Position numbers and translations under genes: made by a program. DNA of 64,000 bases from a virus: IMG/VR virus record IMGVR_UViG_3300033149_002674, positions 3,971 to 67,970 of that record. The stretch is one strand, 5' to 3'. Positions 1 through 64,000 of this stretch are shown piece by piece. Every line of letters begins with the position of its first letter. Position 1 is the stretch's first letter. The notes beneath the pieces were generated by a model. It was not told the DNA's origin. It worked only from the letters and a program-made list of their open reading frames with translations, and searched no databases.

Positions 1-345
1 AATATTTCTTGTAGGATAAGAAAGGCTATTAGGAAAAACGGCGAATCCATGGTTGATATATTGCCGTATACCATTAAGGAATTAAGAATGCATTTGGAAT
101 CACAATTTGAGTCACGGATGACTTGGGATAATTGGGGTAAGTATAGTCCAAAAACCTGGGATGACAATGATAAGTCAACTTGGACTTGGCAAGTTGATCA
201 TATTGTTTGTCAATCAGATTTGCCATATGATTCGATGAAGCATACTAATTTCAAGAAGTGTTGGTCGCTTGATAATTTGAGACCTTTAAGTGCTAAGCAG
301 AATGTAATGGATGGCGTTAATAGAGTAAGGCATGGTGGTGTATAA
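1..345 (+). CDS. HNH-type (homing) endonuclease, 5'-truncated at the window edge
   Basis: Frame 1 is open from base 1. Contains MTWDNWG...WQVDHI...CWSLDNLRPLSAKQN, a DHI...N beta-beta-alpha-metal motif. Paralogue of 17860..18591. Confidence 0.75.
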   Translation, partial: NISCRIRKAIRKNGESMVDILPYTIKELRMHLESQFESRMTWDNWGKYSPKTWDDNDKSTWTWQVDHIVCQSDLPYDSMKHTNFKKCWSLDNLRPLSAKQNVMDGVNRVRHGGV

Positions 346-2498
346 TGGTGTGCGATCCCAACTCGAATTCGCTTAACCCACCTAACCTTGGTCCACCACC
401 AGATGGTTATTTTGGGCCGATCTTTGCTCCGCCACAGATCCCATTCCCAGACATCTCTTTGCCTGAGGGAATACCTAATGATATACTAGATATATTAAAT
501 CAAATATTTCTACAGATACCAGGAGGAAGAATAATACCAAATGTTGACGGAGCATTTGATTCTGTCTATGACGCTGTAGGCAAGCTAATGAATGCTTTTG
601 CTCCATACATGGCTTTCTACTCCTTCATTCAAGCCCTATTAAACATAATAATATGTATAATAGAAGTATTATGTGCATTGATAAACCCATTTAAGGTTAT
701 CAAGGCTATAAGAAGATTGTTTAAGCAATGTATTCCAGACTTTTTATCTATGTTTCCATGGATTGCTCTGATTGCAATGATATTAGCATTCATACTAATG
801 CTATTAGCTCTTATTGAGTATTTAATAAATACAATTATTGCTCTTATTAATGACATTATCGCAAACATAACTACTCTTGCTGAAGCTGTTCAGATTGGTC
901 ATGAAGAGGGAATTATAGCTGTTACTACTAAGCTATCTTCTTTGCTTTGCTTTATTGAGCAGCTTTTTGCTATGCTTATAGCATTTCAGGTTATCTTTGT
1001 TATTATCAAAGCTCTTGCTGAATTAGGAGGCTCTAAACCCTGTAAGAGAAAGGGCGGTGACTGTTGCGATGACGAGGTTTGTCCTCCGTTTATTGGAGAT
1101 TTTCCAGATGGTACTACTGGTGTATTTGGTCGTTTAATATATCACAACAGGATAAACTTGAATGTTTCCACTCTGGGAATACCCGCACTAGAAGATTTAG
1201 TTGCCCCACTAAGATCAGAGAGGTGGCAGTTCGTTGATGATCTTGACTCTCCTCAGTATCCTTTCAACGATATAATTACACCAATCAATGATAATATTTT
1301 TTGGCCTCAAGGTTTAGTGTTGCAAAAGGGAGATAATCTTAAAAATACAGTGCCTTATACTGTTAATCTTAGATTAGCTTTAGATCCATCCGTATTTGTT
1401 GACTCAAATGGAGATCCTATAAATAGTAATAATGGATCTTTTACAGGCTATAGGTATTTTAGAGTTGATGATGTTATACTAGTAAGGCAGCCTTACAATG
1501 GTATATTGAACTATGAAAATAATTTAGATTTTGGAGATGATGCCCCCTCTCCATTAACTGGAACATCTTTCGGTGATAATGATGGAACAATTAAATTAGT
1601 GGGAGGCCTTGTATATGAAGATGATGGAGTAACACCATTTAATGTGGATGGAGAACAAGCTACAATAGATACCTTCATTCACAGAGGTACACAAACTTCT
1701 AGTAGCCTTCCTTCATCTGAAGATGGCTATCAAATCTCTAACATAGAATGGAATCTAAAACCAAACCATCCTGTTCTTATGAAATATCAGCTTATTACTG
1801 CTGGTTGCCAGCCTGATATTCAGGCTGAAACTAATGTTGTTGATTTGACAATACCAGACCCCACACCTGTTATAGATATATTAGGAGAGGAGGGATTGCC
1901 AGATCTTGATACGGCTCTTGAATGTTTGAATACAGCGATAAATGATTTTAGACAAGATGTTTCTCTAGAAAAAGCTGCTATTTTTCAAAATTCAGTAGTT
2001 GGATGTTTAGAGGATCTGAGAGACCAATCCATAAGGGTTTTTGAAAGAGGCCTGGCTGCTGGAGTTTCCACTTACAAGTCTGAGTTTACACTAGATCCAG
2101 AAATTCAATTTATTGATAGACCAATACAGGTTGCAGTTACCCTAAAAGATGCCGGTGGTAATGAGCTTGCTAATAATATACCTTCACCTGTTGATGAAAA
2201 TATTGCTTCTCTACTTAAAGGAAAGGTAACTTTTGGTTCTATATCTGATTTTTCATATGATGGATATAGCCTTTTTCTAGCAGATATAACATCTTCTTTG
2301 CCCGGTTCTGGAACAGCTCAAGTATCATTTGACGGAGACTTTTTATCGGAAGTTTTGAATCAGGATGATATTGATGCTCAGTCTGAGATATCAATAATTA
2401 CGCTTCCTTATCAGTTTGTTGGTGGAGACGGTGCTGGCGGTGTTAGGCCAGATCCTCTTGCACGTCGCGATGAGACAGATGTCTCCAAGAATGAATAA
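345..2498 (+). CDS. Putative virion/baseplate-associated protein with hydrophobic helical N-terminal region, Cys cluster and beta-rich C-terminal part
   Basis: 717-aa ORF at the head of the baseplate gene run. Long Ile/Leu/Ala-rich helices at about aa 85-225, then KPCKRKGGDCCDDEVCPP. Three DGY motifs. Confidence 0.5.
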   Translation: MVCDPNSNSLNPPNLGPPPDGYFGPIFAPPQIPFPDISLPEGIPNDILDILNQIFLQIPGGRIIPNVDGAFDSVYDAVGKLMNAFAPYMAFYSFIQALLNIIICIIEVLCALINPFKVIKAIRRLFKQCIPDFLSMFPWIALIAMILAFILMLLALIEYLINTIIALINDIIANITTLAEAVQIGHEEGIIAVTTKLSSLLCFIEQLFAMLIAFQVIFVIIKALAELGGSKPCKRKGGDCCDDEVCPPFIGDFPDGTTGVFGRLIYHNRINLNVSTLGIPALEDLVAPLRSERWQFVDDLDSPQYPFNDIITPINDNIFWPQGLVLQKGDNLKNTVPYTVNLRLALDPSVFVDSNGDPINSNNGSFTGYRYFRVDDVILVRQPYNGILNYENNLDFGDDAPSPLTGTSFGDNDGTIKLVGGLVYEDDGVTPFNVDGEQATIDTFIHRGTQTSSSLPSSEDGYQISNIEWNLKPNHPVLMKYQLITAGCQPDIQAETNVVDLTIPDPTPVIDILGEEGLPDLDTALECLNTAINDFRQDVSLEKAAIFQNSVVGCLEDLRDQSIRVFERGLAAGVSTYKSEFTLDPEIQFIDRPIQVAVTLKDAGGNELANNIPSPVDENIASLLKGKVTFGSISDFSYDGYSLFLADITSSLPGSGTAQVSFDGDFLSEVLNQDDIDAQSEISIITLPYQFVGGDGAGGVRPDPLARRDETDVSKNE

Positions 2499-2507
2499 GG
2501 TTGATGT

Positions 2508-4199
2508 ATGGCTGATTTTCCAGATAGAAAAATTGATTCAGAACTTGATGATACCCAGGGCGTTGAGCTTAACATATTCAAACTGTATGATAAGTTCATC
2601 TCACCTATTGAGGGTATGCGTTCTTTTTCTGCTGCGCCATCGATAGATAGGCCAGTTATAGCTGATGGTGATTTTGTATCTAACGATGCAGCTAACGCTG
2701 CTGAGTCAGACCCAACCCAGCCTCAGGAGTCAAGGACTCATGCATTCTATCGAATGATTGGCTTCCCAGTGGTGAATGATGCTGGCGCTTTCTACAATCC
2801 AGGTTACGACCCTCTGGTCAAAGCAGATGAGAGAGTGAAGACATACAATATCTCTTCATCTATTTCAGACCCAGTAAAGCTTGCACACTCACTTAGAGAG
2901 ACAGATGTTAGAACAAGGCTATCAATATTTTCAAGGAGAGCAGTAGATGCATCTGTATATGCTGTTGCTATGGGTGTACCACAGGGTGTGAAGCCATTTC
3001 TTCAAATGGATGATACAGAAGGTTTCGACGCTATTACATCTCTTGATGAGCAGAAGTTCTCAGTGCCAGATAGAAAGAAGTACATCGAGTCAAGGTACGA
3101 AAGAAGAGATGGTCAGCCTATCACTAACTTCTTTCAGGGTGGTACTCATATTCTTAGGCCATTCAATGTTGATCCAAACATTGTTGACTCAGTTACTGGG
3201 CTTCCAAATGAGACCAGACATGTTGCCGTTCCATTCTTGCCGTTAAAAAGAGATACAGCAATCGATAGAGATATTTTCACCAAGCGTCCAGCGATTGAGT
3301 TCATCTTGAGACTCAGGCTTACATCACAGCCTGACAACGGATTGATTGGTTTGATTCTTGGTGGAACAGAGGAAACACTACGGGGTGAATTCACAAACTC
3401 TGAAGTATCAGAGGTTGTATCGGCGCTGCTTGATCAAGATGGCGCAGATATCTCAAATGCTGATATCATAAATAGATTAAAGAATGCCTCTGAAATTGAG
3501 CTTATAAATCTTAATAAGCTAGTTAAGACAATCAAGGGTGTTGTAGGATTGCTTGCAGATTCTATCGATGAGATATCTGAGGTATCAAAGAAGATCAACT
3601 GGAAACCACTTCCTTTGGCCACTGGACCCGAGAGGGGCTCAGATATCACTCCTCTTTTGAAAACACTTCAGCAAACAGAGCTTGAGAAAAGGATTTTGAA
3701 CCTATCTATCAGGGCTGATGAGGGTAAGAGGCAGGGTACACTATCTAATACCAATGCTTTTGCGTCAGAGGAATTTCATCTTTCTGGGTATGAGAACGTT
3801 GAGAAGACTTGGGACCGTGAGCTACAGGAAGAGAAAGAGCAGAGAGATAACCAGCAAAGAATAGGTTCTAACGCTCTATCATCTGTTGAAATAATCACTG
3901 GGGAGATTTCCGGCCTTGGTCTGATAGATATACTGGCGATCTACACTGCATTATGGGCCATAGATATAGAGGTATTAATATCTATGCTTGACGAGCGTGC
4001 GTTCAATAGGATGCGCAATTTCAATCCAGACTTAAAAACTGCTGCAGAAAATTCCACAAGAATAAGCATAAATGAGGCAATGCAGACATTCGAGAGACAG
4101 GTTATTAACATTCTATCTTATGCTGATAGGATTTTGCAGCAGAAATTGGGATCACCAGTTAATTCGGAAGGCGGTAACGTACCAAGAGTGGAGCTATAA
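2508..4199 (+). CDS. Hypothetical protein, probably structural (baseplate region)
   Basis: 563-aa ORF with an AAGG RBS, coupled to the gp25-like gene by TAATG. No recognisable motif. Confidence 0.55.
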   Translation: MADFPDRKIDSELDDTQGVELNIFKLYDKFISPIEGMRSFSAAPSIDRPVIADGDFVSNDAANAAESDPTQPQESRTHAFYRMIGFPVVNDAGAFYNPGYDPLVKADERVKTYNISSSISDPVKLAHSLRETDVRTRLSIFSRRAVDASVYAVAMGVPQGVKPFLQMDDTEGFDAITSLDEQKFSVPDRKKYIESRYERRDGQPITNFFQGGTHILRPFNVDPNIVDSVTGLPNETRHVAVPFLPLKRDTAIDRDIFTKRPAIEFILRLRLTSQPDNGLIGLILGGTEETLRGEFTNSEVSEVVSALLDQDGADISNADIINRLKNASEIELINLNKLVKTIKGVVGLLADSIDEISEVSKKINWKPLPLATGPERGSDITPLLKTLQQTELEKRILNLSIRADEGKRQGTLSNTNAFASEEFHLSGYENVEKTWDRELQEEKEQRDNQQRIGSNALSSVEIITGEISGLGLIDILAIYTALWAIDIEVLISMLDERAFNRMRNFNPDLKTAAENSTRISINEAMQTFERQVINILSYADRILQQKLGSPVNSEGGNVPRVEL

Positions 4200-4630
4200 T
4201 GTCTTTTGATTTGAAACTAGAACAAGGTGATATTCAGATTTCTGCAGAATCTGACCTCGCTATTGTTGAAAACGGTGAGAAATTAACTCAGGATGTGCTT
4301 AAAGTTGTTACAACACAGCTTGGAGCTAACAAAAGATTCCCTTGGTATGGCTGTCCGCTTACCCAGTCCATGATTGGAAGGGCTTTTGATTCTGTTTTCA
4401 TCAGCTCAGTTGCTAGCAATCAGCTCAGATTTAGTATCACAAACCTCCAGCGCCTCCAGCAAGAGCAGATTACGAACGATCAGGTGGTTACTAATCAGGA
4501 ACAAATTGCTGCAGTTCAAAATCTTTCTGTAAACCAGAACCCTATTGACCCCAGGTTCTTCAATATAGATTTAACAGTATTATCAAAGGCTTTCCGCCGA
4601 GTCAATGCATCCTTTTCAGTAACCCTTTAG
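4199..4630 (+). CDS. Baseplate wedge protein, gp25/GPW-like
   Basis: 143 aa. DL...GDI...L.QD.LK...T.LG...FPWYG pattern and C-terminal DPR...IDLTV strands; lies immediately upstream of the baseplate-J-like gene. Confidence 0.75.
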   Translation: MSFDLKLEQGDIQISAESDLAIVENGEKLTQDVLKVVTTQLGANKRFPWYGCPLTQSMIGRAFDSVFISSVASNQLRFSITNLQRLQQEQITNDQVVTNQEQIAAVQNLSVNQNPIDPRFFNIDLTVLSKAFRRVNASFSVTL

Positions 4631-4696: not shown

Positions 4697-7600
4697 ATGG
4701 TAAGGGTACGTACTGTAGATGAATTAATCCTAAATGCCATAGATTTTTACAAAACAGCAAGACCGCAACTGGATACAAAGCCAGGAACGGTTTCACGAGA
4801 TTTGTTAATCGATGGTCCTAATACTCAGCTTGCTAGAGTATATGATGAGCTTGCGCGTATACGTACAGCTCAGTCTTTGCGTTTGTCACTAGGTTCCGAC
4901 CTAGATAATCTAGCTAATAACTTTGGAGCAGTCCGTAAGCAGGGAACAGCTGCTTCTGGAACTGCACTCTACACGTTCAATGCTGTAGAGGCTGATATTG
5001 CAATTAATGTAGGCGAGACTGTTGTTGCATCGAACGGTGCATCATTCAGAGTTACTGCAACTGTGGTGGTGTCTCCTGTTAATGCTAATCAGTATAGAGC
5101 AACCGCATCTAAGTTTAGAGGAGACTTGGACTTTGCCGGTATTTCTGATGAATTTGCTGTTCAGGTTCCTGTGGAGGCTACAGGCCCAGGTCTCATTGGC
5201 AACATCTCTAAATACGCTCTTGTTACTGCTACAACACCTGGCGTATCTAATGTAACGAATGCATCCCCATTCTCTGGAGGCTCAGCAGCAGAGTCGGATC
5301 AGGCTTTCAGAAACAGAGTCCTTTCAATATTCTCAGGAGCTAACACGGGTACTGCGCTCGGCTACAGGAATGCAGTTCTTGCTGACCCACAGGTTCTTGA
5401 CGCTTTGGTTGTTGAACCTGGCGACCCTTTAATGACTAGAGATGGTACTCAGGTCATTATTGCAGAGGATGGAACAAGAACAATTGTCTCAGAGGGAACT
5501 GGCGGCAAGGTTGATATCTATGTTCAAGGTATCAGACTCACTCAGATTCTTGACTCGTTCATATACAGGGACCAGTCAAACAGAAATGACCCAACGGATC
5601 CATCTAACGATTTTGTCCTTGGACAGATTGAAGGTGATGAGGGTAAGACTGTATCAAGAAAGAGAATAGAAAACCTTGAGAATGAAGTTCTTCCAGACCA
5701 GCCTGTCAACAATGTGACAGAGGTTTCGGGTTCTACTTCTGGCGCTAACTTTACAGAGAGAGTTACAGACTCCCTTGGTAGAGTTACTGGCAACTATGAA
5801 CTTGTCAGGGATAGTGGTGCTTTTGGCGGTTCTCCTTGGGGCTTCGACAGACTCCGTTGGATTGATGATAGAATCAGGAACTTCTCTGAGGATCAAAACA
5901 AGGGTCGTTTCAATGGTCAGGATCCAACAACATTCCCTGACGTAACCAGAATTGGTACAACGACTCAGAACGTTCAGGTAACGAATGAGAATTCAACAGT
6001 CTCACAATCTGATAGGTCTTCCATTCAGCTTAGCCACAATCCAGTAACTGCTGTCACTAAGGTATTCAACCTTACGACAGGCGAGCTTTATGAGGTCACT
6101 GGTCAGAACCCTGACGGCACAGGCTCAATCAATGAGACCGGAAGGATTACAATTAGAGGTAACACCCTTCCTGCAACATCTGATATTCTTCAGGTGGATT
6201 ACACATGGATCTTCGACTACAACCCAGACGTTGATTTCGATAATAGACTTACAAATCAGAACCCACGTTCTGTTACTGACTCCGTTGACTGGGGTTTCTC
6301 AAACGCAGTATCAAGAGAGGAATCAATTGTAACTGCTACGGGATCTCTTCTTACGGTTGAAGTAACCCACCCAATTACATCAGTGATATCTGTAAACACA
6401 TTCGTGTCCGATACATCAACTGTACAGCTTATCTCTGGACGTTTGGGCGTTGTCGTATCTCAGGAAGTTGCAAACGTTGTGTCCGTTGTTAGAACACTGG
6501 ACTCAGCAGAGCTTTTTGATACCAATAGAGATGACGGCTCCTTCTCAGGGTTCACGATTTTCTTGCCAACCGATACGGTTGCGCAGGTAGGAGATGCAGT
6601 GTCTGTGGTGTATAATGCAGTAGATACATTCACAGTCAATTCAGTGACGGGCTCATTCAGTGATAACATAATCACCTTACCATCAAACACAGATGTTACC
6701 GCTGGAACTATTGTAGAGGTTAACTACATTGCAAATGTTAGAACGCTTCTACCGCAGACATTGCTACCTTCACTGCCAGCAATTAGGAACGGAAACTCAT
6801 TCCAGACTAATACTCTAGCGCTAACTGGAACCCAGCCTACTACTCATATATTCTCTGGAACAGAGGTTGTGCAGAACTTGAGAAAGGCTCCTTCTAGATT
6901 GCAGCTATCAATAGCTGGTTCAATTTCACCAGGTACTATCACTGTATCAGGAACCTCATTTACACGAGTTGCTGATGCGGTATTCACAGTATCGAATGCT
7001 GGTCTTACACATGACCTCTCATCTGTTATTAGAGATGCTTTACAGCTTTCATCTACAGACCCAATCCCAGCGTCAGTATCTGTAACTAGAGTTACTTTCG
7101 TTGAAAAGGTTCAGGCAACAGATTCTTTCGAGGTTCTATCGGTAGATAATACCTTTGACTTAAAGGGTTACGGAATAAGAGATAACACTTATGATAAGTC
7201 AGAGTCTATTCAGGTTCCATCTCTTACTTCTACAGAGTTTAGAATACCATCTACACCAGATAATAATGAGAACGCTCCAAATATCGGAGATAAGCTAAGA
7301 GTTACATTCTTTATTGGAATTACATCTGACTCAGAAAACGTTTCTTTCTCTCAGTCAGGAACTCTTTCTACTCAGAAGAGATTCGCAATTGTTGATTCAA
7401 TCTCAATCTCATCTGGTTTCACATCGGCTACTTCAAGTTCAGCAACCCTTACTGTGAACAACTTGAACCAGCCAACTGCGGGTAGGAGATATTCTGTTGC
7501 TTATGACTACATAGCTCCTAAGTCTAATGAGAGAATTACTGTTAGGTATAACAAGAATGCAGTAATCTCAGACTCTACTTTCTCAGTTGAGGATGTAAGA

Positions 7601-20501: not shown

Positions 20502-20863
20502 TGGGAACTACGCAACAAGATATCATTAACCTAATTACGAAGCATTCTTATGCTGCTGGGATAGTGGTAAGCATAAATACTTTTAATGATTTCTTTAATT
20601 GGGGCAAGGGTTCTCTTTTTGATCCGGAAACTAATCGAACGCGCTTGCAAAAAGGGATTTATGCTTATGTATTAGGAAGGTGTATTGTTGTTTCGAAAGC
20701 CATTCCAGACGGAGAGGTCGTACCAGTGAGTAATAGCTTTTTAGAAGACATAATAATGTCTAAAGAGTCTAAGTTCACTAGAGTAGATCTGATAAAGCAT
20801 CTTAGAGATTATGGAATGACAGAACTTGCAAATATTTTACAAATGGATGAGGCACTATTATGA
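20501..20863 (+). CDS. Small hypothetical protein with a segment resembling a phage major capsid protein A-domain
   Basis: Likely start is the ATG at 20501, overlapping the upstream TAA. Contains GIYAYVLGRCIVVSKAIPDGEV. Confidence 0.45.
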   Translation: MGTTQQDIINLITKHSYAAGIVVSINTFNDFFNWGKGSLFDPETNRTRLQKGIYAYVLGRCIVVSKAIPDGEVVPVSNSFLEDIIMSKESKFTRVDLIKHLRDYGMTELANILQMDEALL

Positions 20864-25365: not shown

Positions 25366-25373
25366 GGAAATAA

Positions 25374-27975: not shown

Positions 27976-27982
27976 GGAACAA

Positions 27983-28879: not shown

Positions 28880-28887
28880 GGAAAGAT

Positions 28888-29577: not shown

Positions 29578-29599
29578 CTGTCGAGTTCATACTTCTCCG

Positions 29600-32410: not shown

Positions 32411-32412
32411 TT

Positions 32413-33726: not shown

Positions 33727-33733
33727 GGATAAT

Positions 33734-56889: not shown

Positions 56890-59496
56890 ATGGTAAAAGC
56901 TAGAGAGAATCAACTAGGGCCGATTACAATCTTGGACGAGGATTCTGGGGGCACTGTAGATAATACTGGTGCTAACCTACAGAATACTGGCGGTGTGACT
57001 CATAACGAACTTGTAGGAACTCCTGGAAATAACTCTTTCTGGGTTGAGACCGGTGTGCCATCTCTTCCTAAGTTTACGGACTCTACTGGTGCTACCATTA
57101 CTCTTGGCGCTCTAGCTGTTACAGATACTCTAGCAGCAACTCTTGCTGCTGGTAATGTCACTGGTGGAACCAGCATTGCCTTATCCAGTACTGACTCTAT
57201 CACAGTAGAGAATCCATCTGGAAATATTGCTATTATGAATGGAGGTAATGGCTCTGATATCGGTGGAGATATAAATATTACATCTAGAGATATGGGATCT
57301 CTATATGTAAGAACTGAAGATTATCCTACTGGGTCTAATGTTGGAGATGGATATTTTGGATCATACTCAGTAACTGGCCCCTCTGGCAATGTTGAATTCG
57401 TAACAGAAGGTAATGGAACTCCATCTGGAGATGTTCGTATTGGTACATACTCAAATGCAGATTCTGGTGACCTAACAATAATGACGGAAGCTACTGGTGG
57501 AAGTGCTGGTGATTTATTTATTGGGAGGTCTCATTCTGGTCTTGGCGGAGATATTATAGTCAGAAATGAGTCAACTGGTGGAACGGTTGGCGATATACTA
57601 ATACAGAATGATGGCGCTGGCACTGCTGGCAATATAGAGATATCTAATACATCTATTGGCGGCGTTTGTGGTGAAATCAATATCTTCAATACATGCGGTG
57701 GACAACCAGGCGACATCAATATTTTCTCACAGGGATTAGGTGCTCCTCCGGGAGATATTAATATATATGCACATGCAGGTGGTGGTCCAGGTGGTGACAT
57801 CAGCTTTTCAACAGAAGGCGTTGGCGCTCCAGGTGGAAACTATGAGTTTAGAAGCTTTGGTGGTGGTGGTTCCGGTGGAGACTTTGACTTCTATTCATTT
57901 GGAACAGGTGGACCAGGCGGTGTATTTAGATTCAATTCAGGCGGACCTACCAGCTCTGGTATAGCCGGTGAACCAGTCTTTCAATTCTTCACAGATGGTT
58001 ACGGCGCTCCAGGTGGCGACTTTGACTTAAGAACAATTGGTCGTGGTGGTCCTGGTGGAAACTTTACATTCCACTCGCAAGCTTTATCTGGCGCTCCCGG
58101 TGGTAATGTACTTTTTAACCTTATCGGATCCGACGCTCCAGGCGGAGATTTTACTATAAGGTCTATTGTTGATGGTTCAGGTGCGCCATCTGGAAATTTC
58201 TTATATGAATCTATTACTCCAGCAGGTGCTCCTGGTGGTTCTATAACATTCAGAACTCAGGGTACAGGTGGTCCAAATGGTGAAGTGCTATTTGTTAGTT
58301 CCACTTCTTCTGCAGGTGGTGCTGCTGGTGGCGACATTAGAATGCAGACTGATAATGACTCCGGAGAAGGAGGAAATATAACATTAAGATCTTCTTCAAC
58401 AGGGTATGGCTCAAATGTTACCGGTATCCTTATAGAAGGAGTTCAGAATGATGGCGCTAATGATACTCCATCTGTTACATTAAGAACTTCAAATTCAAAT
58501 GGTTCAAACTCATCTATAAACATCAACCCAAGCAGTACATCTTCTGGAAATATTGATATTGAAACGTCAGGTGCGCCAAATGGTTCTGGTAGTATAAATA
58601 TTTCTACAGGTGATGGTTTTGGTGCAGGATCTGGTTCGTTAAACTTTGAGACAGGTGGTGGAGATAGTGCTGGCTCAGGTGCTATTACATTCCAAACGGG
58701 TTATGGTGGTAACGGGGCCTCTGGTCCTATCACTTTCAGAACTGGCAATGGAGATACTGGTGGTTCTGGTAATATGACTTTTATAACGTCATTTGGAGGC
58801 AATGATGAGTCGGGTGGTTTCTATTTTGCATCCGGTGAGGGTAATGATGGTGGTTCAGGCGAGTTTAGTATAATCACTGGTCCTGGTCAGGGAGGGGAAT
58901 CCGGAGGTTTTACATTTACATCTGGTGATGTAGTTACCGATGGTTACACATCAGGACCATTTATTATTACTACAGGTAATGCTAATGGTAGCTTAGTTGA
59001 CTCTGGAAATATTGAGTTTACTACTGGTGATGTTTCTGGTGGAACTGGAATGGCTGGTGACATTATCTTTACACCAGGTACTGGAAATGGAACTAACGGT
59101 TCTGTTAGAGCAATTGGTGCATCACACACAGCAATAAGAGAACAAATAGAGTTAAGCTCATCTCAAGTAGTATCTGGTGCTGTTACATCAGGTGGCGGAA
59201 CACTAGCTCTTACACTTCCAACGATTACAGATGGAAGAACTGAAACATACAGTGTTAAAGTCAAAACCAATACAGCTGGAGCAAGAGATTTTTACAGAGC
59301 TATTGTAATAGCCTACAGATCTACAACGTCTACAATAGATAGAGTTGAGGTAGTATCTCCATTTAATAATGGAAACTTCACATTGGGAGCATCCCTGTCA
59401 ACAAATGATGTTGTACTTACATTTACTAATAACTCTGGCACGAACACTACTAATACGGTTATAACTGCATCTATAGATACAGAAGTTAATGCTTAA
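56890..59496 (+). CDS. Gly-rich repeat fibre protein (shared N-terminal module, paralogue 1)
   Basis: N-terminal MVKARENQLGPITILDED...SFWVETGVPSLPKFTDS. About 14-residue GAPGGD/N repeats. Confidence 0.7.
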   Translation: MVKARENQLGPITILDEDSGGTVDNTGANLQNTGGVTHNELVGTPGNNSFWVETGVPSLPKFTDSTGATITLGALAVTDTLAATLAAGNVTGGTSIALSSTDSITVENPSGNIAIMNGGNGSDIGGDINITSRDMGSLYVRTEDYPTGSNVGDGYFGSYSVTGPSGNVEFVTEGNGTPSGDVRIGTYSNADSGDLTIMTEATGGSAGDLFIGRSHSGLGGDIIVRNESTGGTVGDILIQNDGAGTAGNIEISNTSIGGVCGEINIFNTCGGQPGDINIFSQGLGAPPGDINIYAHAGGGPGGDISFSTEGVGAPGGNYEFRSFGGGGSGGDFDFYSFGTGGPGGVFRFNSGGPTSSGIAGEPVFQFFTDGYGAPGGDFDLRTIGRGGPGGNFTFHSQALSGAPGGNVLFNLIGSDAPGGDFTIRSIVDGSGAPSGNFLYESITPAGAPGGSITFRTQGTGGPNGEVLFVSSTSSAGGAAGGDIRMQTDNDSGEGGNITLRSSSTGYGSNVTGILIEGVQNDGANDTPSVTLRTSNSNGSNSSININPSSTSSGNIDIETSGAPNGSGSINISTGDGFGAGSGSLNFETGGGDSAGSGAITFQTGYGGNGASGPITFRTGNGDTGGSGNMTFITSFGGNDESGGFYFASGEGNDGGSGEFSIITGPGQGGESGGFTFTSGDVVTDGYTSGPFIITTGNANGSLVDSGNIEFTTGDVSGGTGMAGDIIFTPGTGNGTNGSVRAIGASHTAIREQIELSSSQVVSGAVTSGGGTLALTLPTITDGRTETYSVKVKTNTAGARDFYRAIVIAYRSTTSTIDRVEVVSPFNNGNFTLGASLSTNDVVLTFTNNSGTNTTNTVITASIDTEVNA

Positions 59497-59508: not shown

Positions 59509-61734
59509 ATGGTACAGCCAAGAGAAGAACAATTAGGAAACATTACCGTTTTAGACGAGGATAATGCAGGAGTTGTAACCACATCTGGTTCCAACATCAC
59601 CGATGCTGGTGGTGTTATTCATGATGAGCTTGGAGGAACTCCTGGAAATAACTCTTTTTGGGTTGAAAATACATCCCCATCTCTACCAAAGTTTACCGAT
59701 TCTGCTGGCTCTACAATAACACTTGGTGGTGGAGGAGATGGCTATAGCTCAGATGGACCAGCAAATCGTATTCAGGTTTCTGATGGATCAGAAGGTTTTG
59801 TTGCTGGTGGTTTAAGTGATGATGGGTCTGGTTTTCTTTCCTATGAAGTTGATGCTTCAGTATCTATTACCACTCAACCATCACGAGGAATAGCTCTTCT
59901 ACCTGGAATAGGCGGGGACGCTTTCATATTTGGTCAAGACATAAGTCTTAATGCTAGTGCTGGTTCGGGTATCTCCACTATTCAGGGTGCTGATGTTGCA
60001 CTTAATGCACAAGTAAATGATGTTAGTATAACAGCTGCAACTGACTTAAATATAACAGTTCAAGGTGCTGCGGCAACATGGCCAACAGCTAATGGTTCAG
60101 GAGTTCTGACTAATAATGGCTCTGGTACATTATCATGGGCAGCTCCAGTAGTTGCAGATCCTCCACTTTCAGACGTTCTTGCGGCAGGTAACTCTACTGG
60201 AACAGGGCAGGATATAAGCATGTCTTCCGGATCAGAAATTGTAGGATTTGGAAATCCTGTGCCTGGCGGTAACGGTGGAAATGTTGCATTACGAGGAGGC
60301 CAGGGTCTTACATCCGGTAACGGTGGAAGTATTACACTCACAGGTGGTAATGGTGGTTCTTCAGGAGATTGTGGAAGTATCAGCATTCAGGGAGGTACAT
60401 CTGGCTGGACTGATGCTCCTGGTGGCTCTGTTACTATTCAGGCAAGTGGAGGTCGTGGTGCTGGTAATGGTGGATCAATGCTCATCACCGGAGGGTCTAA
60501 GATTACCGCTGGGCTTGGTAATGCTGGCTCTGCGCAGTTAAGCGGAGGAAATGGTGGCTCAGTAGGTGATGGTGGAAATGTTATTATTGCTGGAGGAATT
60601 TCAACTACAGGTACTTGCGGTGATGCTACGATTAGAGGAGGCTTTGGTTTTACTGGTGGTAATGTAACTATTCTAGGCGGAACGTCTACTGGAACCTCTG
60701 TTGGTGGTGGCATTGTTATGAGTGGTGGTAATTCTCCAAATGTTGGCAACTTTGCTGGTGGACAAGTTATTGTTGAGGGTGGATTGGGAACATCTACAGG
60801 AACATCTCCGGGTGGTGAATTGTTCTTACGTGGTGGCGAATCAGACACTGGAAACAATAATGGCGGTGATGCAAACCTTCAGGGTGGACTTGCATCTGGT
60901 ACTGGTAATGGCGGTGATGTTAGAATTCGTGGCGGCTCTTCTCCAAGCGGTTCTGTTGGCTCTGTTAATATAGATCAATCAAACGGATCTACTGCGGCAA
61001 TATTCGATGATTCCACAGATTGGGCTGGAGCATCTGTTGGAGATGTTCTAGTAAAGGGGGCGACTGGATTAGAATATTCGGCAATTACTGACTCTCCTGG
61101 TGACTTTACTGTTAACGGAAAGCTTACAGTTACTGGTCTTATTGATCCTACAGGTATGGTTTTCTCTGAGCAGGGAACATCTCCATATGATCCTTCGTCT
61201 ACTGGAACTGAAGGAATGATTTGGGTACGTGATGATGCTAAGCTTATTTATTCAGATAAACTTGGTAACGAATTTCCTATATCAAATGATGGATATGTTG
61301 ACAATCAAAGCTCATCTCCTAACGCTCTTATTGGAAAGGAAACAATTAACGTCATATTAGAGGGTATTAGTTCTGTCTCCTCCCAGTCTAACGACTATGA
61401 CCTTCCTCTTGTTGTGGGAGGGGTTACACCAAGTGGCACTTCTGAAAATGAGTCTAAGTTAATAGCAGAAATCAAGGTTGGGGTAACAAGAGGTGATGGG
61501 TCCGACTATTCTGTTGCTTCTTGGATTTCTTCATGGACATGGAACGACAATTCTTCAGGGTATGGAAATACGGATCTTGAGTTGACTTCAGCTTCTTCTG
61601 GCACCCTTACAATGGTAGCTACTACAGATGGTGGATCACCAGCACTCCCAAGAATCCAGGTTGGAACATCTGGAGCTGCTGATACTCCAAGATACTTTGT
61701 GGAAATAAATTTAACTCTTTTCAATGTTGACTAA
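59509..61734 (+). CDS. Gly-rich repeat fibre protein (shared N-terminal module, paralogue 2)
   Basis: MVQPREEQLGNITVLDED...SFWVENTSPSLPKFTDS, GGxVxIxGG repeats, GKLTVTGLIDPTG. Confidence 0.7.
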   Translation: MVQPREEQLGNITVLDEDNAGVVTTSGSNITDAGGVIHDELGGTPGNNSFWVENTSPSLPKFTDSAGSTITLGGGGDGYSSDGPANRIQVSDGSEGFVAGGLSDDGSGFLSYEVDASVSITTQPSRGIALLPGIGGDAFIFGQDISLNASAGSGISTIQGADVALNAQVNDVSITAATDLNITVQGAAATWPTANGSGVLTNNGSGTLSWAAPVVADPPLSDVLAAGNSTGTGQDISMSSGSEIVGFGNPVPGGNGGNVALRGGQGLTSGNGGSITLTGGNGGSSGDCGSISIQGGTSGWTDAPGGSVTIQASGGRGAGNGGSMLITGGSKITAGLGNAGSAQLSGGNGGSVGDGGNVIIAGGISTTGTCGDATIRGGFGFTGGNVTILGGTSTGTSVGGGIVMSGGNSPNVGNFAGGQVIVEGGLGTSTGTSPGGELFLRGGESDTGNNNGGDANLQGGLASGTGNGGDVRIRGGSSPSGSVGSVNIDQSNGSTAAIFDDSTDWAGASVGDVLVKGATGLEYSAITDSPGDFTVNGKLTVTGLIDPTGMVFSEQGTSPYDPSSTGTEGMIWVRDDAKLIYSDKLGNEFPISNDGYVDNQSSSPNALIGKETINVILEGISSVSSQSNDYDLPLVVGGVTPSGTSENESKLIAEIKVGVTRGDGSDYSVASWISSWTWNDNSSGYGNTDLELTSASSGTLTMVATTDGGSPALPRIQVGTSGAADTPRYFVEINLTLFNVD

Positions 61735-61741: not shown

Positions 61742-62473
61742 ATGAAGTACTGGTTAATCATAGGAGTTAAAGACCCCAGGTTTTATGATAATATAAATCA
61801 AAATATAAAAAGGATATCCAATTCCTTCAATACTGAATGTGTTATCGTAGAAACCGGTGAAGGAATTGGTTTATTTGATCATGCTATAACTCAAGAAAAA
61901 CCAGGCGTTGTTGCTTTTTTAAACACAGCACTTTCTCATGTAAAAGATAAACCTGATGATTGGTTTGTAAGGATTGATGCTGATGATTATTATGGCCCAA
62001 ACTACTTAAAGCTAATAGATGATGCCAGACTGTCTGGAGCGGATGCAACAGGAATTGCTTCTGTTTATACAAAGACAGAAAGCGGGGATATCTACTACTG
62101 TGAATCCAAAAGACAATTTAATGGAGCTTTTGGAGGAACTATTGCTGGAAGAATTGGGTCAGCCATAGAATTTGAAGAAACCGGTTATCCCTGGGGAGAG
62201 GATACAAAATGGATATCATCTATGATTACTCAAGGCAGGACTGTATTACCAAGAAAATCTCAAGACTATGCTTTTGTAAGGTGGGAGGGGCATAACCATA
62301 CATACCCAGTTTCTGGAGAAGCAATGCCACACTTTCTAAATTGCAATGCATATTATCAGGGAAAATGGGATCCTTATAAATTAAAATCATCTTTTAATAA
62401 AGAAAGCCCTGTGAAAAAAAATTCTAAGCTTGCTTTTGAGGGCGCGAAGTCTCTGCAAGCTGTATCGCCATAA
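61742..62473 (+). CDS. GT-A fold (GT2-like) glycosyltransferase embedded in the fibre cluster
   Basis: WFVRIDADDYYGPNYL (DxDD motif), GGTI, WGEDTKW, HNHT. Confidence 0.65.
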   Translation: MKYWLIIGVKDPRFYDNINQNIKRISNSFNTECVIVETGEGIGLFDHAITQEKPGVVAFLNTALSHVKDKPDDWFVRIDADDYYGPNYLKLIDDARLSGADATGIASVYTKTESGDIYYCESKRQFNGAFGGTIAGRIGSAIEFEETGYPWGEDTKWISSMITQGRTVLPRKSQDYAFVRWEGHNHTYPVSGEAMPHFLNCNAYYQGKWDPYKLKSSFNKESPVKKNSKLAFEGAKSLQAVSP

Positions 62474-62484
62474 TAGCGCATATT
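62469..62484 (+). promoter_or_regulatory. Candidate late-promoter motif CAT-N7-CATATT
   Basis: Same arrangement as 4635-4650; lies just upstream of AGGAG and the ATG at 62498. Confidence 0.35.
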
Positions 62485-62497
62485 TCTAGGAGATAAT

Positions 62498-64000
62498 ATG
62501 GTACAACCAAAAGAAGGACAACTAGGCCCAATTACAATCTTAGATGAGGATGCAGGTGGAACTGTAAATGCATCTGGTGCTAATATTCAAACGGTAGGCG
62601 GAGTTACTCATGTTTCTGAGGCTCTACCTGGTCCTGGTAATGATTCATTTTGGGTTGAAGCTGGTACACCTTCTCTCCCTAAATTTACGGACTCTACTGG
62701 AACCACTATAACAATTGGTTCTGGAAATGGAGATGTAACTGGACCTGGGTCTGGATCAGATAACAACATTGTTGTATTCGATGGAGTTACAGGAAAAATC
62801 CTTAAAGATTCTGGTTTTAATCTCACCACTATAGATGGAGCTAATGGTGAGGTTCTCACAACAGATGGTGCTGGCAATATCACATTTACATCTGCAGGTA
62901 CACCTAGTGGTCCAGATAGGTCTATACAGTTCAAGGATGGCATTGTGTTCGGAGGGCAAGCTCAGCTTCTTTACACTGATGACTCTACCAATAACTACAT
63001 GGACCTAACGAATGTTAGCGCCACTGGCACAACTGGATTGAGGGTGTTTGACAATACTGCCACTCAATCAATGGCTTTTACATTTAATGATAATACATCA
63101 GAAGCTTTGGCTGCAACATTTGCCGGTGCTAACTTTACAGTATCAGGTTCCGGTAACTTAAACCTATCAGCAAACTCAAATATTGTAATCGATTCTGGCT
63201 CTCCATTAATATGGCCATCTTCTGATGGAGCGAATGGCGATGTTTTGACAACTGACGGAGCTGGAAATCTTTCATTCTCAACAGCAGCTGGAGTCGCTCA
63301 GGGGCTTCAGCTTAATTATGATGTTGGCAACTTAATTGTAACTGATGCTGCAGGAGGTCCTATAGACTTTTCTGGAGATCAAGAAATAAATTTAACAGCT
63401 GGATACGGAACAACTGGCAATTCTAGTTTTTCAATTCAAGCAAATGACCCCAGCCCAGTTGTACTTTCTTTAGCGACAATTAATACTGGCGGTGTAGGAG
63501 TTTTAAATCTTTCAGGCCAGGACTCAGCGGTACTTCAAACAACGCAAGGAGACTTAACTGTTAATGCTATAAACGGTTTTGCTCAGCTTAGCTCTTCTCA
63601 TAATGACCCCAATAATGCTTTGGTCGCTATTGCATCCTCTAATACTGGCGCAGGTCGTGCTGATATTTCAATTACTGCACAAGATGATATCGCCATAACA
63701 GCTATAGATGGTTACGTAAATATTTCTTCAAGCGGAATTAGTAACTCATGGAACACTTCAGGCAATAGCCCTGATAATATTGTGTTAGCATTAGGGGGTA
63801 TTAACTCTGGTGCTGGCAGTACTGAGGTTAATATTGGAAGTGATACAGTACTATTATTTGCGCTTACAGGGGGTGAGCTAAATTTTGATGGAGGTTCTGG
63901 TTCTTCAGATACATGGCCTTCAGTTCAAGGGCCTGGATTCTTACAAAATGATGGACTGGGGGCTCTTTCATGGCAACCAGCAGTACAGCCACCAAATGTA
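62498..64000 (+). CDS. Fibre protein (shared N-terminal module, paralogue 3), truncated at the window end
   Basis: Missing from the ORF track because it has no stop in the window. AGGAG RBS; reads MVQPKEGQLGPITILDEDAGG...SFWVEAGTPSLPKFTDS, WPSSDGANGDVLTTDGAGNLSF, AIDGYVN. Confidence 0.8.
   Translation, partial: MVQPKEGQLGPITILDEDAGGTVNASGANIQTVGGVTHVSEALPGPGNDSFWVEAGTPSLPKFTDSTGTTITIGSGNGDVTGPGSGSDNNIVVFDGVTGKILKDSGFNLTTIDGANGEVLTTDGAGNITFTSAGTPSGPDRSIQFKDGIVFGGQAQLLYTDDSTNNYMDLTNVSATGTTGLRVFDNTATQSMAFTFNDNTSEALAATFAGANFTVSGSGNLNLSANSNIVIDSGSPLIWPSSDGANGDVLTTDGAGNLSFSTAAGVAQGLQLNYDVGNLIVTDAAGGPIDFSGDQEINLTAGYGTTGNSSFSIQANDPSPVVLSLATINTGGVGVLNLSGQDSAVLQTTQGDLTVNAINGFAQLSSSHNDPNNALVAIASSNTGAGRADISITAQDDIAITAIDGYVNISSSGISNSWNTSGNSPDNIVLALGGINSGAGSTEVNIGSDTVLLFALTGGELNFDGGSGSSDTWPSVQGPGFLQNDGLGALSWQPAVQPPNV

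What the first reader, a model, noticed from the sequence alone, without database searches (positions are those of the whole stretch)
345..64000. A DGY tripeptide marks the putative virion proteins: candidate sequon for a phage-encoded protein modification system
Seen: manual DGY counts are 3 (345..2498), 6 (7936..14661), 7 (14668..17640), 4 (45288..46958), 9 (46960..54492), 2 (54515..56692), 3 (56890..59496), 2 (59509..61734) and at least 1 (62498..end), about 37 in total. I found none in any enzyme, replication or regulatory protein from 17.8 to 45.2 kb, although those proteins contain many DG dipeptides. There are also none in baseplate J, the gp25-like protein or 2508..4199. Roughly a third of DG dipeptides in the structural proteins are followed by Y. 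The motif sits in otherwise non-homologous contexts (PPDGYF, TKDGYA, CADGYD, EVDGYA, RNDGYM, GGDGYS) and uses varied codons, so the enrichment is at protein level rather than a DNA repeat. Established: Tyr O-glycosylation occurs on some Firmicutes S-layer proteins, Bacteroidetes O-glycosylation uses an Asp-led sequon D-(S/T)-(A/I/L/V/M/T), and some phages glycosylate virion proteins with their own glycosyltransferases. Inference: DGY may be a recognition sequon for the adjacent glycan machinery (Tyr O-glycosylation, or possibly Tyr sulfation), or a docking motif for a decoration protein.
Basis: partly seen in the sequence, partly recalled or inferred. Interest (0 to 1): 0.92.

Follow-up and report, generated by a model that had tools for sequence, protein, structure and literature searches.

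The report
DGY tag on huge-phage outer virion proteins
The outer tail, baseplate and fibre proteins of this uncultured huge phage and its relatives carry the exact tripeptide Asp-Gly-Tyr far more often than chance, in exposed and variable loops, which looks like an undescribed surface tag, perhaps a sugar-attachment site, though no modification has been shown.

Summary
There are 37 DGY in nine virion ORFs against 2.3 expected (Poisson 2e-31), and none in the 32 other ORFs. The excess survives collapsing paralogous contexts (33 clusters) and is protein-level, in frame and on the coding strand.

It is strictly D-G-Y. NGY, EGY, DGF, DAY and YGD are at or below chance, and the flanks are free. Sites lie in loops, linkers and hypervariable insertions. 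They include tandem DGY arrays whose copy number varies between orthologues. The Tyr is rarely replaced by Phe.

The motif is a clade trait: 23 of 26 viral loci carrying an orthologue of the conserved GT2 19794-20501 are DGY-enriched, against 0 of 30 loci with distant GT2s. Two outgroup huge phages lack the conserved GT genes. One shows no DGY excess where sampled. Phage G shows none in its tail module but a repeat-driven one in its giant proteins.

The sulfotransferase is absent from a complete DGY-rich relative, so sulfation is not supported. The glycosylation reading stays circumstantial. This scan has noted the motif before on other DNA, and two literature searches found no paper describing a DGY motif or phage Tyr glycosylation.

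The parts
345..2498 (+). Virion (baseplate-module) protein, 717 aa, 3 DGY of 10 DG
   Evidence: Orthologues in G001, G002 and G003 at 30-38% identity. No Pfam or PHROG match.
2508..4199 (+). Baseplate-module protein, 563 aa, 0 DGY of 3 DG
4199..4630 (+). gp25-like sheath initiator (weak match), 0 DGY
   Evidence: PF10934 at E 0.005, below the cut-off.
4697..7936 (+). Baseplate J-like protein, 1079 aa, 0 DGY of 5 DG
   Evidence: PF04865 at 8.8e-23.
7936..14661 (+). Giant baseplate-associated protein with a Laminin_G_3 domain, 2241 aa, 6 DGY of 21 DG. Includes a tandem DGY array at residues 1208-1221.
   Evidence: In 120 homologues the mean is 6.2 DGY against 0.53 expected, and the array holds up to 6 units with variable spacers.
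14668..17640 (+). Peripheral baseplate protein with a dockerin type I module (residues 592-657), 990 aa, 7 DGY of 15 DG
   Evidence: AF2 model pLDDT 84.3. Foldseek match to phi812 baseplate chain 9eui_Q at E 2.5e-6, and to dockerin chains at TMt 0.72-0.77. In 120 homologues the mean is 8.4 DGY against 0.22 expected.
18588..19700 (+). Conserved GT4/GT1-family glycosyltransferase, first gene of the conserved GT block
   Evidence: PF00534 and PF13439. Orthologues at 46-49% identity in G001, G002 and G003. Absent from phage G and LR745208.
19794..20501 (+). Conserved GT2 glycosyltransferase. Its best curated family hit is MftF, far below the cut-off.
   Evidence: PF00535 at 3.8e-19. TIGR03965 scores 58.7 bits against a cut-off of 280. 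Orthologues found in 26 viral loci.
20860..21669 (+). Conserved GT2 glycosyltransferase
   Evidence: Orthologues at 44-53% identity in G001, G002 and G003. Absent from phage G and LR745208.
21653..26336 (+). Further genes of the block: a 324-aa unknown, a GT2, a 664-aa possible GT4-like protein, and a Glyco_trans_1_2 protein. The first three are shared with G001 and G002; 25374-26336 is shared with G001 only.
   Evidence: The Atlas lead for 23371-25365 scores 0.87, so it is a lead only.
26333..34696 (+). Variable part of the glycan cluster: two GT2s, Sulfotransfer_2 (27163-27975), two methyltransferases, GDP-mannose 4,6-dehydratase, and epimerases/reductases
   Evidence: ORFs 26333, 27163, 27962 and 29629 have no homologue in complete G001.
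45288..46958 (+). Mosaic fibre protein, 556 aa, 4 DGY of 9 DG
   Evidence: In the AF2 model all 4 DGY Tyr are in coil and 3 lie in segments with pLDDT below 50.
46960..54492 (+). Giant fibre protein, 2510 aa, 9 DGY of 31 DG
   Evidence: Its modules are shared with 267 representative proteins.
54515..56692 (+). Fibre protein with Laminin_G_3 lectin-like domains, 2 DGY of 8 DG
56890..59496 (+). Gly-rich fibre protein, 868 aa, 3 DGY of 9 DG
59509..61734 (+). Gly-rich fibre protein, 741 aa, 2 DGY of 8 DG
61742..62473 (+). Small GT2-like protein (weak match) set among the fibre genes, 0 DGY
   Evidence: PF00535 at E 0.005, below the cut-off. Weak homologue at G001 361623-362408.
62498..64000 (+). 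Fibre protein, open at the window's end, 1 DGY of 9 DG

Best explanation
DGY is a short linear surface motif that selection keeps and multiplies on the outward-facing virion proteins of one clade of huge (about 350-460 kb) phages. Something reads it through all three residues, including the tyrosine hydroxyl. The most plausible reader is the clade's own cytoplasmic glycosyltransferase block (GT4 18588-19700, GT2 19794-20501, GT2 20860-21669, and neighbours), which would attach a glycan to the Tyr before assembly. The strain-variable genes downstream (further GTs, sulfotransferase, methyltransferases, GDP-sugar enzymes) would then diversify that glycan.

Shown: the enrichment, its exactness, its loop and variable-insertion location, its clade-wide distribution, and its co-occurrence with the GT block.

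For: **1. Strength and exactness.**
- In the window there are 37 DGY against 2.3 expected.
- In window plus G001 virion regions there are 106 against 8.6. The neighbours are at or below chance: NGY 3/7.5, EGY 1/5.5, DGF 10/10.0, DGW 1/2.3, DAY 3/6.6, YGD 10/8.6. The other 565 ORFs carry 14 against 16.8.

**2. No flanking context.** In 152 non-redundant sites the only flank signal is V/A/I at +1, and there is no alternating strand pattern.

**3. Tyr identity matters.** In 120 homologues of 14668-17640, only 22 of 118 non-Tyr residues at the 9 DGY-Tyr columns are Phe. At 19 other Tyr-majority columns the figure is 353 of 578. The replacements at DGY columns are E, T, D and S.

**4. Exposed or variable location.**
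- 9 of 11 modelled DGY tyrosines are in coil, several in segments with pLDDT below 50.
- In a roughly 70-aa beta-sandwich module with 200 instances, the window's DGY sits in a hypervariable polar column. 16 of the 26 DGY in the module fall in its indel-rich loop.

**5. The unit itself is selected.** Orthologues of 7936-14661 carry a tandem array with up to 6 DGY within 60 residues. Spacers vary and units can directly abut, as in DGYDGY.

**6. Spread over unrelated and mosaic proteins.**
- 52 DGY of 201 DG in 28 mosaic fibre homologues.
- 525 of 1407 DG against 30.4 expected in 138 representative fibre proteins.

**7. Link to glycosyltransferases.**
- The three GTs directly after the baseplate genes are conserved in G001, G002 and G003.
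- 23 of 26 loci with an orthologue of 19794-20501 are DGY-enriched (241 vs 25.6 expected). None of 30 loci with distant GT2s is enriched (18 vs 21.0).
- Phage G and LR745208 lack homologues of 18588-19700 and 20860-21669 and have no GT2 above the cut-off. Their baseplate modules show no excess (2 vs 1.7 and 2 vs 1.9).

**8. The cluster looks cytoplasmic.** A Kyte-Doolittle scan of seven of its ORFs found no multi-pass membrane protein, only one hydrophobic window. That suits direct cytoplasmic glycosylation of soluble acceptors.

**9. Chemical precedent.** The best curated hit of 19794-20501 is MftF. MftF is a GT2 shown to put a glucan on the hydroxyl of a tyrosine-derived moiety (PMC7491314, passages read).
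Against: - No modification is shown, and no tool here can show one.
- The GT co-occurrence is phylogenetically confounded. The 26 orthologue loci are one clade, and the outgroups are two lineages.
- In the dockerin-like family the DGY sites behave as ordinary conserved columns. Sporadic extra DGY (27 occurrences in 120 sequences) match chance (about 26).
- G003 and G004 keep the GT block, yet their orthologue of 14668-17640 has 0 DGY of 7 DG. L069 has the GT orthologue but no DGY within 10 kb. That contig is a 14%-complete fragment, so the result is uninformative.
- Up to 4 of the 37 sites fit a loose D/N-x-D/N-x-DGY pattern; two lie in the Pfam-matched dockerin module, one of them (residue 644) inside an EF-hand-type loop, where they could be structural.
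- 2 of 11 modelled Tyr are in strands. No coordinates were available, so burial was not measured. Low pLDDT may reflect modelling limits for trimeric fibres.
- Phage G's giant proteins gp420-431 show 14 DGY against 2.2 expected without the GT block, although most of these lie in two repeated modules.
- The MftF hit scores 58.7 bits against a cut-off of 280. That is generic GT2 similarity, not membership.
- Phage GT clusters can instead modify DNA or host glycans (PMC12619734, passages).
Confidence: 0.4

Rival explanations
1. Intrinsic physicochemical role with no reader enzyme. In this view DGY loops act by themselves, for example as Asp plus Tyr ligands for a metal or mineral, as a minimal sticky patch for host polysaccharide, or as a stabilising Asx-turn with a Tyr cap. 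They were multiplied because they are useful on exposed surfaces.
For: - D and Y are at i and i+2, so they face the same side.
- Up to 4 of 37 sites fit a loose D/N-x-D/N-x-DGY pattern; two lie in the dockerin module and one of them (644) in an EF-hand-type loop.
- Many sites are conserved columns.
- Tandem arrays could be multivalent binders.
- Fibres also carry lectin-like Laminin_G_3 domains.
Against: - A turn or packing role should tolerate NGY and DGF. Both are at or below chance.
- Tyr-to-Phe exchange is rare at DGY columns.
- A sticky patch should not care about residue order, yet YGD, GDY and DYG are at chance.
- The sites lack strand context and sit in indel-rich loops.
- Outgroup huge phages manage without the motif in homologous modules.
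Confidence: 0.22
2. Docking motif for a protein partner. In this view a clade-specific decoration protein, assembly chaperone or module binds DGY loops non-covalently and so decorates or cross-braces the virion exterior.
For: - The same exactness, exposure and multivalency arguments apply as for the sequon reading.
- The motif is restricted to outer proteins, and portal, terminase and the tape-measure-sized protein of G001 carry none.
- A dockerin module sits on the baseplate protein.
- Small DGY-rich ORFs lie in G001's virion region.
Against: - No candidate reader was identified.
- Three residues give very little binding energy for a non-covalent interaction.
- Nothing links any gene other than the GT block to the motif's distribution.
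Confidence: 0.15
3. Another tyrosine modification, such as phosphorylation, nucleotidylation, oxidation or dityrosine cross-linking, or modification by a host enzyme, with the GT block serving an unrelated purpose.
For: - The Tyr hydroxyl seems to matter.
- G001 encodes a roughly 76-aa Gly/Tyr/Asp-rich peptide carrying several DGY. From recall, this resembles cross-linkable Gly-Tyr-rich structural proteins.
Against: - Pfam scans of 44 of the 45 window ORFs named no kinase, Fic protein or tyrosinase. G001 was not scanned for these families.
- The motif tracks the phage clade rather than any identified host.
Confidence: 0.1
4. Tyrosine sulfation by the window's sulfotransferase 27163-27975.
For: A sulfotransferase is present (PF03567, 4.3e-13). 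An acidic residue lies near the Tyr.
Against: - The enzyme belongs to the carbohydrate-type Sulfotransfer_2 family.
- It has no BLASTP homologue in complete G001, which is just as DGY-rich.
- PF03567 also found nothing in G001-G004, though that search's control genomes were silent too.
- It lies in the strain-variable part of the cluster.
Confidence: 0.03
5. Artefact of composition, paralogous repeats or a DNA-level motif.
For: Some sites are paralogous: three small clusters in the window. Phage G's milder excess is largely repeat-driven.
Against: - 33 independent contexts remain, P = 1e-26.
- Composition expects 2.3.
- Codons vary.
- There is strand and frame specificity.
- The excess is replicated in hundreds of proteins from other contigs.
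Confidence: 0.01

Closest known systems
Three-residue protein glycosylation sequons: N-X-S/T, and the Bacteroidota general O-glycosylation motif D-(S/T)-(A/I/L/V/M/T).
   Same: A minimal, context-free tripeptide in exposed positions that is gained, lost and clustered. An Asp leads the motif, as in the Bacteroidota case.
   Different: The acceptor would be Tyr, not Asn, Ser or Thr. The Bacteroidota motif itself is not enriched here (56 observed vs 55.9 expected). Those systems act outside the cytoplasm through membrane oligosaccharyltransferases, and a hydropathy scan of seven of the cluster's ORFs, the named GTs not scanned, found no multi-pass membrane protein. No modification is shown.
Virion glycosylation of mycobacteriophages by phage-encoded glycosyltransferases (Freeman et al. 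2023; seen only as cited in PMC12619734, passage read)
   Same: Phage GT genes lie next to structural genes, and cytoplasmic glycosylation of virion proteins serves as a surface shield.
   Different: According to that passage, the glycans there sit at the C-termini of capsid and tail-tube subunits. Here the candidate sites are internal DGY tripeptides on baseplate, fibre and sheath proteins. The likely tube protein of G001 carries none. The phages are unrelated.
Tyrosine O-glycosylation of Firmicutes S-layer proteins (search listing only; details from recall)
   Same: Tyr is the glycan acceptor on a surface-array protein.
   Different: From recall, that pathway builds the glycan on a lipid carrier and transfers it with a membrane O-oligosaccharyltransferase. 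No such components were found in this cluster. No DGY sequon is known for it.
MftF, the GT2 that glycosylates mycofactocin (PMC7491314, passages read)
   Same: It is a GT2 enzyme shown to attach a glucan to the hydroxyl of a tyrosine-derived moiety. It is also the best curated family hit of the conserved GT2 19794-20501.
   Different: The hit scores 58.7 bits against a cut-off of 280, so 19794-20501 is not a member. The MftF substrate is a small processed peptide product (core VY preceded by G), not a folded protein.
DxDxDG / EF-hand / dockerin calcium loops
   Same: Two of the 37 sites lie in a Pfam-matched dockerin module, one of them (644) in an EF-hand-type loop, and up to 4 fit a loose D/N-x-D/N-x-DGY pattern.
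   Different: 33 of 37 sites have no such context, and the residue after DG in these loops is not specifically Tyr (column 643: DGY 46, DGV 22, DGT 13 of 120).

Membership tests
Protein glycosylation sequon (generic) | Short motif over-represented in, and restricted to, the proteins that get modified | tested here: met
   37 vs 2.3 in the window; 106 vs 8.6 in virion regions against 14 vs 16.8 elsewhere.
Protein glycosylation sequon (generic) | Covalent glycan demonstrated on the motif's acceptor residue | not testable with these tools
   Needs mass spectrometry of virions or of co-expressed proteins.
Protein glycosylation sequon (generic) | A dedicated transferase that recognises the motif | tested here: inconclusive
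   The conserved GT block co-occurs with the motif (23 of 26 vs 0 of 30 loci; absent in two outgroups). This is phylogenetically confounded and specificity is unknown.
Bacteroidota general O-glycosylation motif D-(S/T)-(A/I/L/V/M/T) | That motif is enriched or used on the target proteins | tested here: not met
   56 observed vs 55.9 expected in the structural ORFs.
S-layer-type tyrosine O-glycosylation | Lipid-linked glycan assembly with a membrane flippase and O-oligosaccharyltransferase (feature from recall) | tested here: not met
   A Kyte-Doolittle scan of seven ORFs of the cluster found no multi-pass membrane protein; one hydrophobic window in 23371-25365. Pfam shows no Wzx, Wzy or PGT families.
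Mycobacteriophage-type virion glycosylation | Phage GT genes adjacent to structural genes | tested here: met
   GT genes start 948 bases after the last baseplate gene and are syntenic in four relatives.
Mycobacteriophage-type virion glycosylation | Glycans at the C-termini of capsid and tail-tube subunits (as stated in PMC12619734) | tested here: not met
   DGY sites are spread along the proteins (relative-position histogram 10/2/8/10/7). G001's likely tube protein has 0.
Protein tyrosine sulfation | A sulfotransferase that accompanies the motif | tested here: not met
   27163-27975 is PF03567. It has no homologue in complete DGY-rich G001.
MftF (TIGR03965) | Score above the curated cut-off | tested here: not met
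   58.7 bits against 280.
Dockerin type I (for 14668-17640 residues 592-657) | Pfam match above the cut-off, plus the fold | tested here: met
   PF00404 scores 27.2 bits against 22.9. Foldseek to dockerin chains gives probability 1.00, TMt 0.72-0.77.
DxDxDG calcium loop | DGY preceded by D/N at -2 and -4 | tested here: not met
   Only 4 of 37 sites.

The most novel reading that the evidence does not exclude
DGY is the acceptor code of a cytoplasmic, phage-encoded tyrosine O-glycosylation pathway. A conserved GT4 + GT2 + GT2 core primes Tyr in DGY loops on every outward-facing tail, baseplate, sheath and fibre protein. Strain-variable enzymes then build sulfated or methylated deoxyhexose glycans on top, giving 350-460-kb phages a programmable sugar coat. 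This would be the first Tyr-centred sequon and the first virion-wide glycosylation code.
Probability: 0.3. Interest if true: 0.9.

Novelty: new variant of a known kind. Interest (0 to 1): 0.8.

Why it matters
If something reads DGY, this is a three-residue code written across the whole exterior of a very widespread clade of huge phages. The clade is large: 817 homologues of one marker protein, and contigs up to 459 kb. The code would be a new kind of virion surface chemistry, and possibly the first tyrosine sequon.

It would bear on host recognition, on shielding from defences or grazers, and on virion stability. It could also supply a compact tag-plus-enzyme pair for protein engineering.

Even if the role is non-enzymatic, a context-free tripeptide enriched about 12-17-fold in hundreds of unrelated structural proteins is an unexplained selective signal. 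It can be tested directly with DGY against DGF or AGY variants.

Tried and rejected
**Explanations rejected**
- Composition, paralogy and DNA-motif explanations.
- A generic beta-turn. NGY and DGF are not enriched and there is no strand pattern in the flanks.
- Sulfation by 27163-27975.
- The Bacteroidota O-glycosylation motif.

**Searches that gave little**
- A megablast of 45288-54492 against the phage collection found nothing.
- Solved-structure sequence searches of three DGY-rich proteins gave only dockerin and one invasin-repeat hit. The same searches for the three conserved GTs gave only generic GT hits.
- PHROGs named almost none of the DGY-rich proteins.
- Pfam at E <= 5 and NCBIfam gave nothing for 21653-22627 or 23371-25365; Pfam at E <= 5 also gave nothing for 32413-33726. 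The Atlas hit for 23371-25365 scores 0.87 and is only a lead.
- The search for related loci with the single GT2 protein found no relative. I repeated it with a four-sequence alignment.
- The PF03567 search of the relatives is weak evidence, because its control genomes were also silent.

**Limits of what was done**
- The model tools return no coordinates, so solvent exposure of the Tyr could not be computed. Only DSSP state and pLDDT were used.
- Complex prediction, read laying and the look-up of sequencing runs were not used. An enzyme-substrate pair is a poor case for the first, and no question here needed reads.
- The G001 'virion regions' were delimited after seeing where DGY clusters, so that split is partly circular. 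The window's split follows gene content.
- ORFs in relatives were called with my own longest-ORF scripts. One search used all six-frame ORFs of 150 aa or more, without an overlap filter.
- Supplements of the papers were closed. Those of PMC12619734 might show whether 'moraphages' or the marine-sediment huge phages it mentions are this clade.

**Literature**
- 'DGY motif' + phage returned 0 papers.
- 'tyrosine O-glycosylation' + bacteriophage returned 7 papers, none on phage proteins judging by title and abstract.

Full report
**What the window is.** The window is bases 3971-67970 of a 67,970-base IMG/VR viral record. All genes lie on the + strand.

Pfam gives the following layout:
- a contractile-tail baseplate module: Baseplate_J at 4697-7936 and a weak gp25-like match at 4199-4630;
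- two giant proteins with Laminin_G_3 or dockerin modules;
- a glycan cluster from 18.6 to 34.7 kb with about nine GT1/GT2-family glycosyltransferases, a Sulfotransfer_2, two methyltransferases, a GDP-mannose 4,6-dehydratase and epimerases;
- replication and regulatory genes: TubZ-like tubulin, UvsW-like and DnaB-like helicases, and a sigma-70-like factor;
- a block of large Gly-rich fibre genes from 45.3 kb to the end.

The window is collinear with 300-362 kb of a complete 458,729-base relative, G001.

All nine DGY counts are reproduced, for a total of 37. The three DGY-free structural ORFs and the 32 DGY-free other ORFs are also reproduced.
- Composition predicts 2.30 DGY in the 13 structural ORFs, Poisson P = 2e-31. 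DGY is the top tripeptide by a very wide margin.
- 37 of 129 DG are followed by Y, against 0 of 33 elsewhere; Fisher p = 1e-4. Only 1.53 DGY were expected in the non-structural ORFs, so the zero there is unremarkable.
- Clustering flanks against a 99.9% null threshold merges only three small paralogous groups. That leaves 33 independent contexts, P = 1e-26.
- Codons vary.
- The coding pattern is on the coding strand only: 38 forward and 3 reverse, against 6/3 for the control.
- Only 4 DGY occur in the other frames or outside the listed genes.

**The motif is exact.** I pooled the window's structural ORFs with G001's virion regions: 66 ORFs and 36,976 aa. The G001 regions were delimited after seeing the clusters, which is a caveat.
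- DGY is 106 observed against 8.6 expected.
- Every one-residue neighbour or permutation is at or below chance: NGY 3/7.5, EGY 1/5.5, DGF 10/10.0, DGW 1/2.3, DGH 3/2.6, DAY 3/6.6, DSY 5/7.3, YGD 10/8.6, GDY 5/8.6.
- The remaining 565 ORFs carry 14 against 16.8 expected.

In 152 non-redundant sites the flanks show no preference except V/A/I at +1 (49% hydrophobic against a 33% background). There is no alternating pattern that would mark a fixed strand-turn-strand context. A purely conformational Asx-turn with an aromatic cap should accept Asn and Phe. It does not.

**Where the sites sit.**
- The AF2 model of 14668-17640 (119-sequence alignment, pLDDT 84.3) puts 5 of its 7 DGY tyrosines in coil, at strand or helix ends. 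One of these regions has pLDDT below 50.
- The model of 45288-46958 is weaker (pLDDT 66.7). It puts all 4 in coil, 3 of them in segments below pLDDT 50.
- No coordinates are returned, so burial was not measured.
- Independent support comes from a roughly 70-aa beta-sandwich module of the giant fibre, found in 200 instances among representative proteins. The window's DGY occupies a hypervariable, polar column (DGY in 12 of 200). 16 of the 26 DGY in the module lie in its indel-rich loop.
- In 120 homologues of 14668-17640, Phe makes up 22 of 118 non-Tyr residues at the DGY-Tyr columns. At other Tyr-majority columns it makes up 353 of 578. The DGY tyrosines are replaced by E, T, D and S instead. 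The sequences are related, so these are counts rather than independent events.

**The unit itself is selected.** Orthologues of 7936-14661 share a hot-spot loop that carries a tandem DGY array.
- The window has three units, L003 has two and L004 has seven.
- Across 120 homologues, the largest number of DGY in any 60 residues ranges from 1 to 6. Spacers vary and units can directly abut (DGYDGY). The surrounding sequence is conserved.
- That family averages 6.2 DGY and 0.88 DGF against 0.53 DGY expected.

**A clade trait, on outer proteins.**
- Relatives at about 50% identity share the enrichment.
- Whole G001 has 83 in-frame DGY against 21.6 expected. They are concentrated at 251-288, 300-318 and 358-368 kb.
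- The G001 sheath carries 3. Terminase, portal, the likely tube protein and a 1726-aa tape-measure-sized protein carry none.
- The dockerin-like family has 817 hits. The 120 listed average 8.4 DGY of 15.2 DG against 0.22 expected.
- 28 mosaic fibre homologues have 52 DGY of 201 DG, against about 4.2 expected (my sum's per-protein values). The positions differ between proteins.
- 138 representative fibre proteins have 525 DGY of 1407 DG against 30.4 expected. The distribution is bimodal: 18 of 90 proteins with at least 5 DG have none, and 65 of 90 have at least 20%.

**Results against a simple turnover picture.**
- In the dockerin-like family about ten columns are conserved, and sporadic DGY (27) match chance (about 26).
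- G003 keeps the motif on other virion proteins (8/18, 3/8 and 7/11 DG) but has none on its orthologue of 14668-17640.

**Link to the glycan genes.**
- The first three GT genes after the baseplate module are conserved at 38-53% identity in G001, G002 and G003. Four further genes are shared with G001, three of them also with G002.
- The sulfotransferase, one methyltransferase and two GT2s have no homologue in complete G001; the other methyltransferase has only a weak hit (24.8% identity) outside G001's glycan block.
- A hydropathy scan of seven ORFs of the cluster, the named GTs not among them, found no multi-pass membrane protein. From recall, lipid-linked surface-polysaccharide pathways require such proteins, so the cluster looks cytoplasmic.
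- An alignment of the GT2 19794-20501 with three orthologues retrieved 56 viral loci.
  - The 26 with 38-56% identity have 241 DGY of 842 DG against 25.6 expected, and 23 of the 26 are individually significant. The exceptions are G003 and G004, and one fragment without large ORFs.
  - The 30 with only distant GT2s have 18 of 595 DG against 21.0 expected, and none is significant.
- The nearest isolate, Bacillus phage G (Baseplate J 30.6% identity over 27% of the query), and the 485-kb record LR745208 lack homologues of 18588-19700 and 20860-21669. Neither has a GT2 above the cut-off. Neither shows an excess in its baseplate module: 2 vs 1.7 and 2 vs 1.9.
- Phage G's giant proteins gp420-431 do show 14 vs 2.2, but six copies lie in a 'DGYWYVRG' repeat and about five in a second repeat.
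- All of this is consistent with the GT block as writer. It amounts to one clade against a few outgroups, so it is correlation.
- The best curated hit of 19794-20501 is MftF, at 58.7 bits against a cut-off of 280, so it is not a member. MftF is a GT2 shown to attach its glucan to the hydroxyl of the tyrosine moiety of mycofactocin (PMC7491314, passages). This is a chemical precedent, not evidence of function.

**What is rejected.**
- Sulfation by 27163-27975 is rejected: it is a carbohydrate-type family member, sits in the variable region, and is absent from G001.
- The Bacteroidota motif D-(S/T)-(A/I/L/V/M/T) is at chance, 56 vs 55.9.
- Calcium-loop contexts explain at most 4 of the 37 sites.

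**Verdict.** The reading as a recognition tag is well supported. Its assignment to tyrosine O-glycosylation by the adjacent GT block is the best available mechanism, at confidence about 0.4, and remains unproven. Intrinsic, docking and other-modification roles remain open.

**Prior notes and literature.**
- This scan has noted the same motif before on other DNA: 126 notes in at least 62 genomes. Those notes include the outgroup-without-GT and Tyr-hydroxyl arguments. I re-derived both here on different data.
- Two literature searches found no description of the motif.
- A 2025 paper on 'moraphages' reports four core GT orthogroups in a lineage of large aquatic phages. It cites mycobacteriophage virion glycosylation as one possible role (PMC12619734, passages). 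Whether that lineage overlaps this clade was not determined.

Noticed in passing
window 1-345 and 17860-18591: Two paralogous HNH-like endonuclease ORFs bracket the baseplate module. They share C-terminal motifs, and their DNA is 73% identical over 174 bases (window 157-330 vs 18409-18582). A homologue lies elsewhere in G003 and none in G001, which suggests mobile homing genes.
   Followed up: partly
window 14668-17640, residues 592-657: A dockerin type I module sits inside a peripheral baseplate protein. Pfam scores above the cut-off, dockerin chains match by sequence and fold, and the module is conserved in hundreds of homologues. No cohesin partner was looked for.
   Followed up: partly
L034 about 1690-1930 (G001 about 55.69-55.93 kb): A small ORF of about 76 aa is made almost wholly of Gly, Tyr, Asp and Ser. 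It has several DGY and SGY units and a basic C-terminal tail. The window contains no equivalent.
   Followed up: partly
window 7936-14661, residues 1208-1221: This is a tandem DGY array hot-spot. Unit number and spacers differ between orthologues while the flanks are conserved.
   Followed up: yes
window 26333-34696: This is the strain-variable half of the glycan cluster: Sulfotransfer_2, two SAM methyltransferases, extra GT2s, GDP-mannose 4,6-dehydratase and reductase/epimerases. It suggests a sulfated or methylated deoxyhexose glycan. The dehydratase and epimerases are shared with G001, the rest is not.
   Followed up: partly
window 34761-36146: A Tubulin/TubZ-like protein (PF00091 at 3.3e-16, TubZ-like C-terminal domain at 1e-6). 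It is conserved at 51% identity in G001.
   Followed up: no
L044 (Bacillus phage G 316.8-347.7 kb, gp420-gp431): These giant Tyr-rich proteins carry repeated 'DGYWYVRG' and 'VDGYxVKxGG' modules, with 14 DGY against 2.2 expected. Phage G has no homologue of two of the three conserved clade GTs, 18588-19700 and 20860-21669, and no GT2 above the Pfam cut-off.
   Followed up: partly
window 61742-62473: A small weakly GT2-like ORF lies between fibre genes, away from the main glycan cluster. It has a weak counterpart at the same place in G001.
   Followed up: no
whole record G000: CheckV completeness is given as 6 for this 68-kb record, while its collinear relative G001 is complete at 459 kb. The window is therefore a small fragment of a huge phage genome.
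   Followed up: yes
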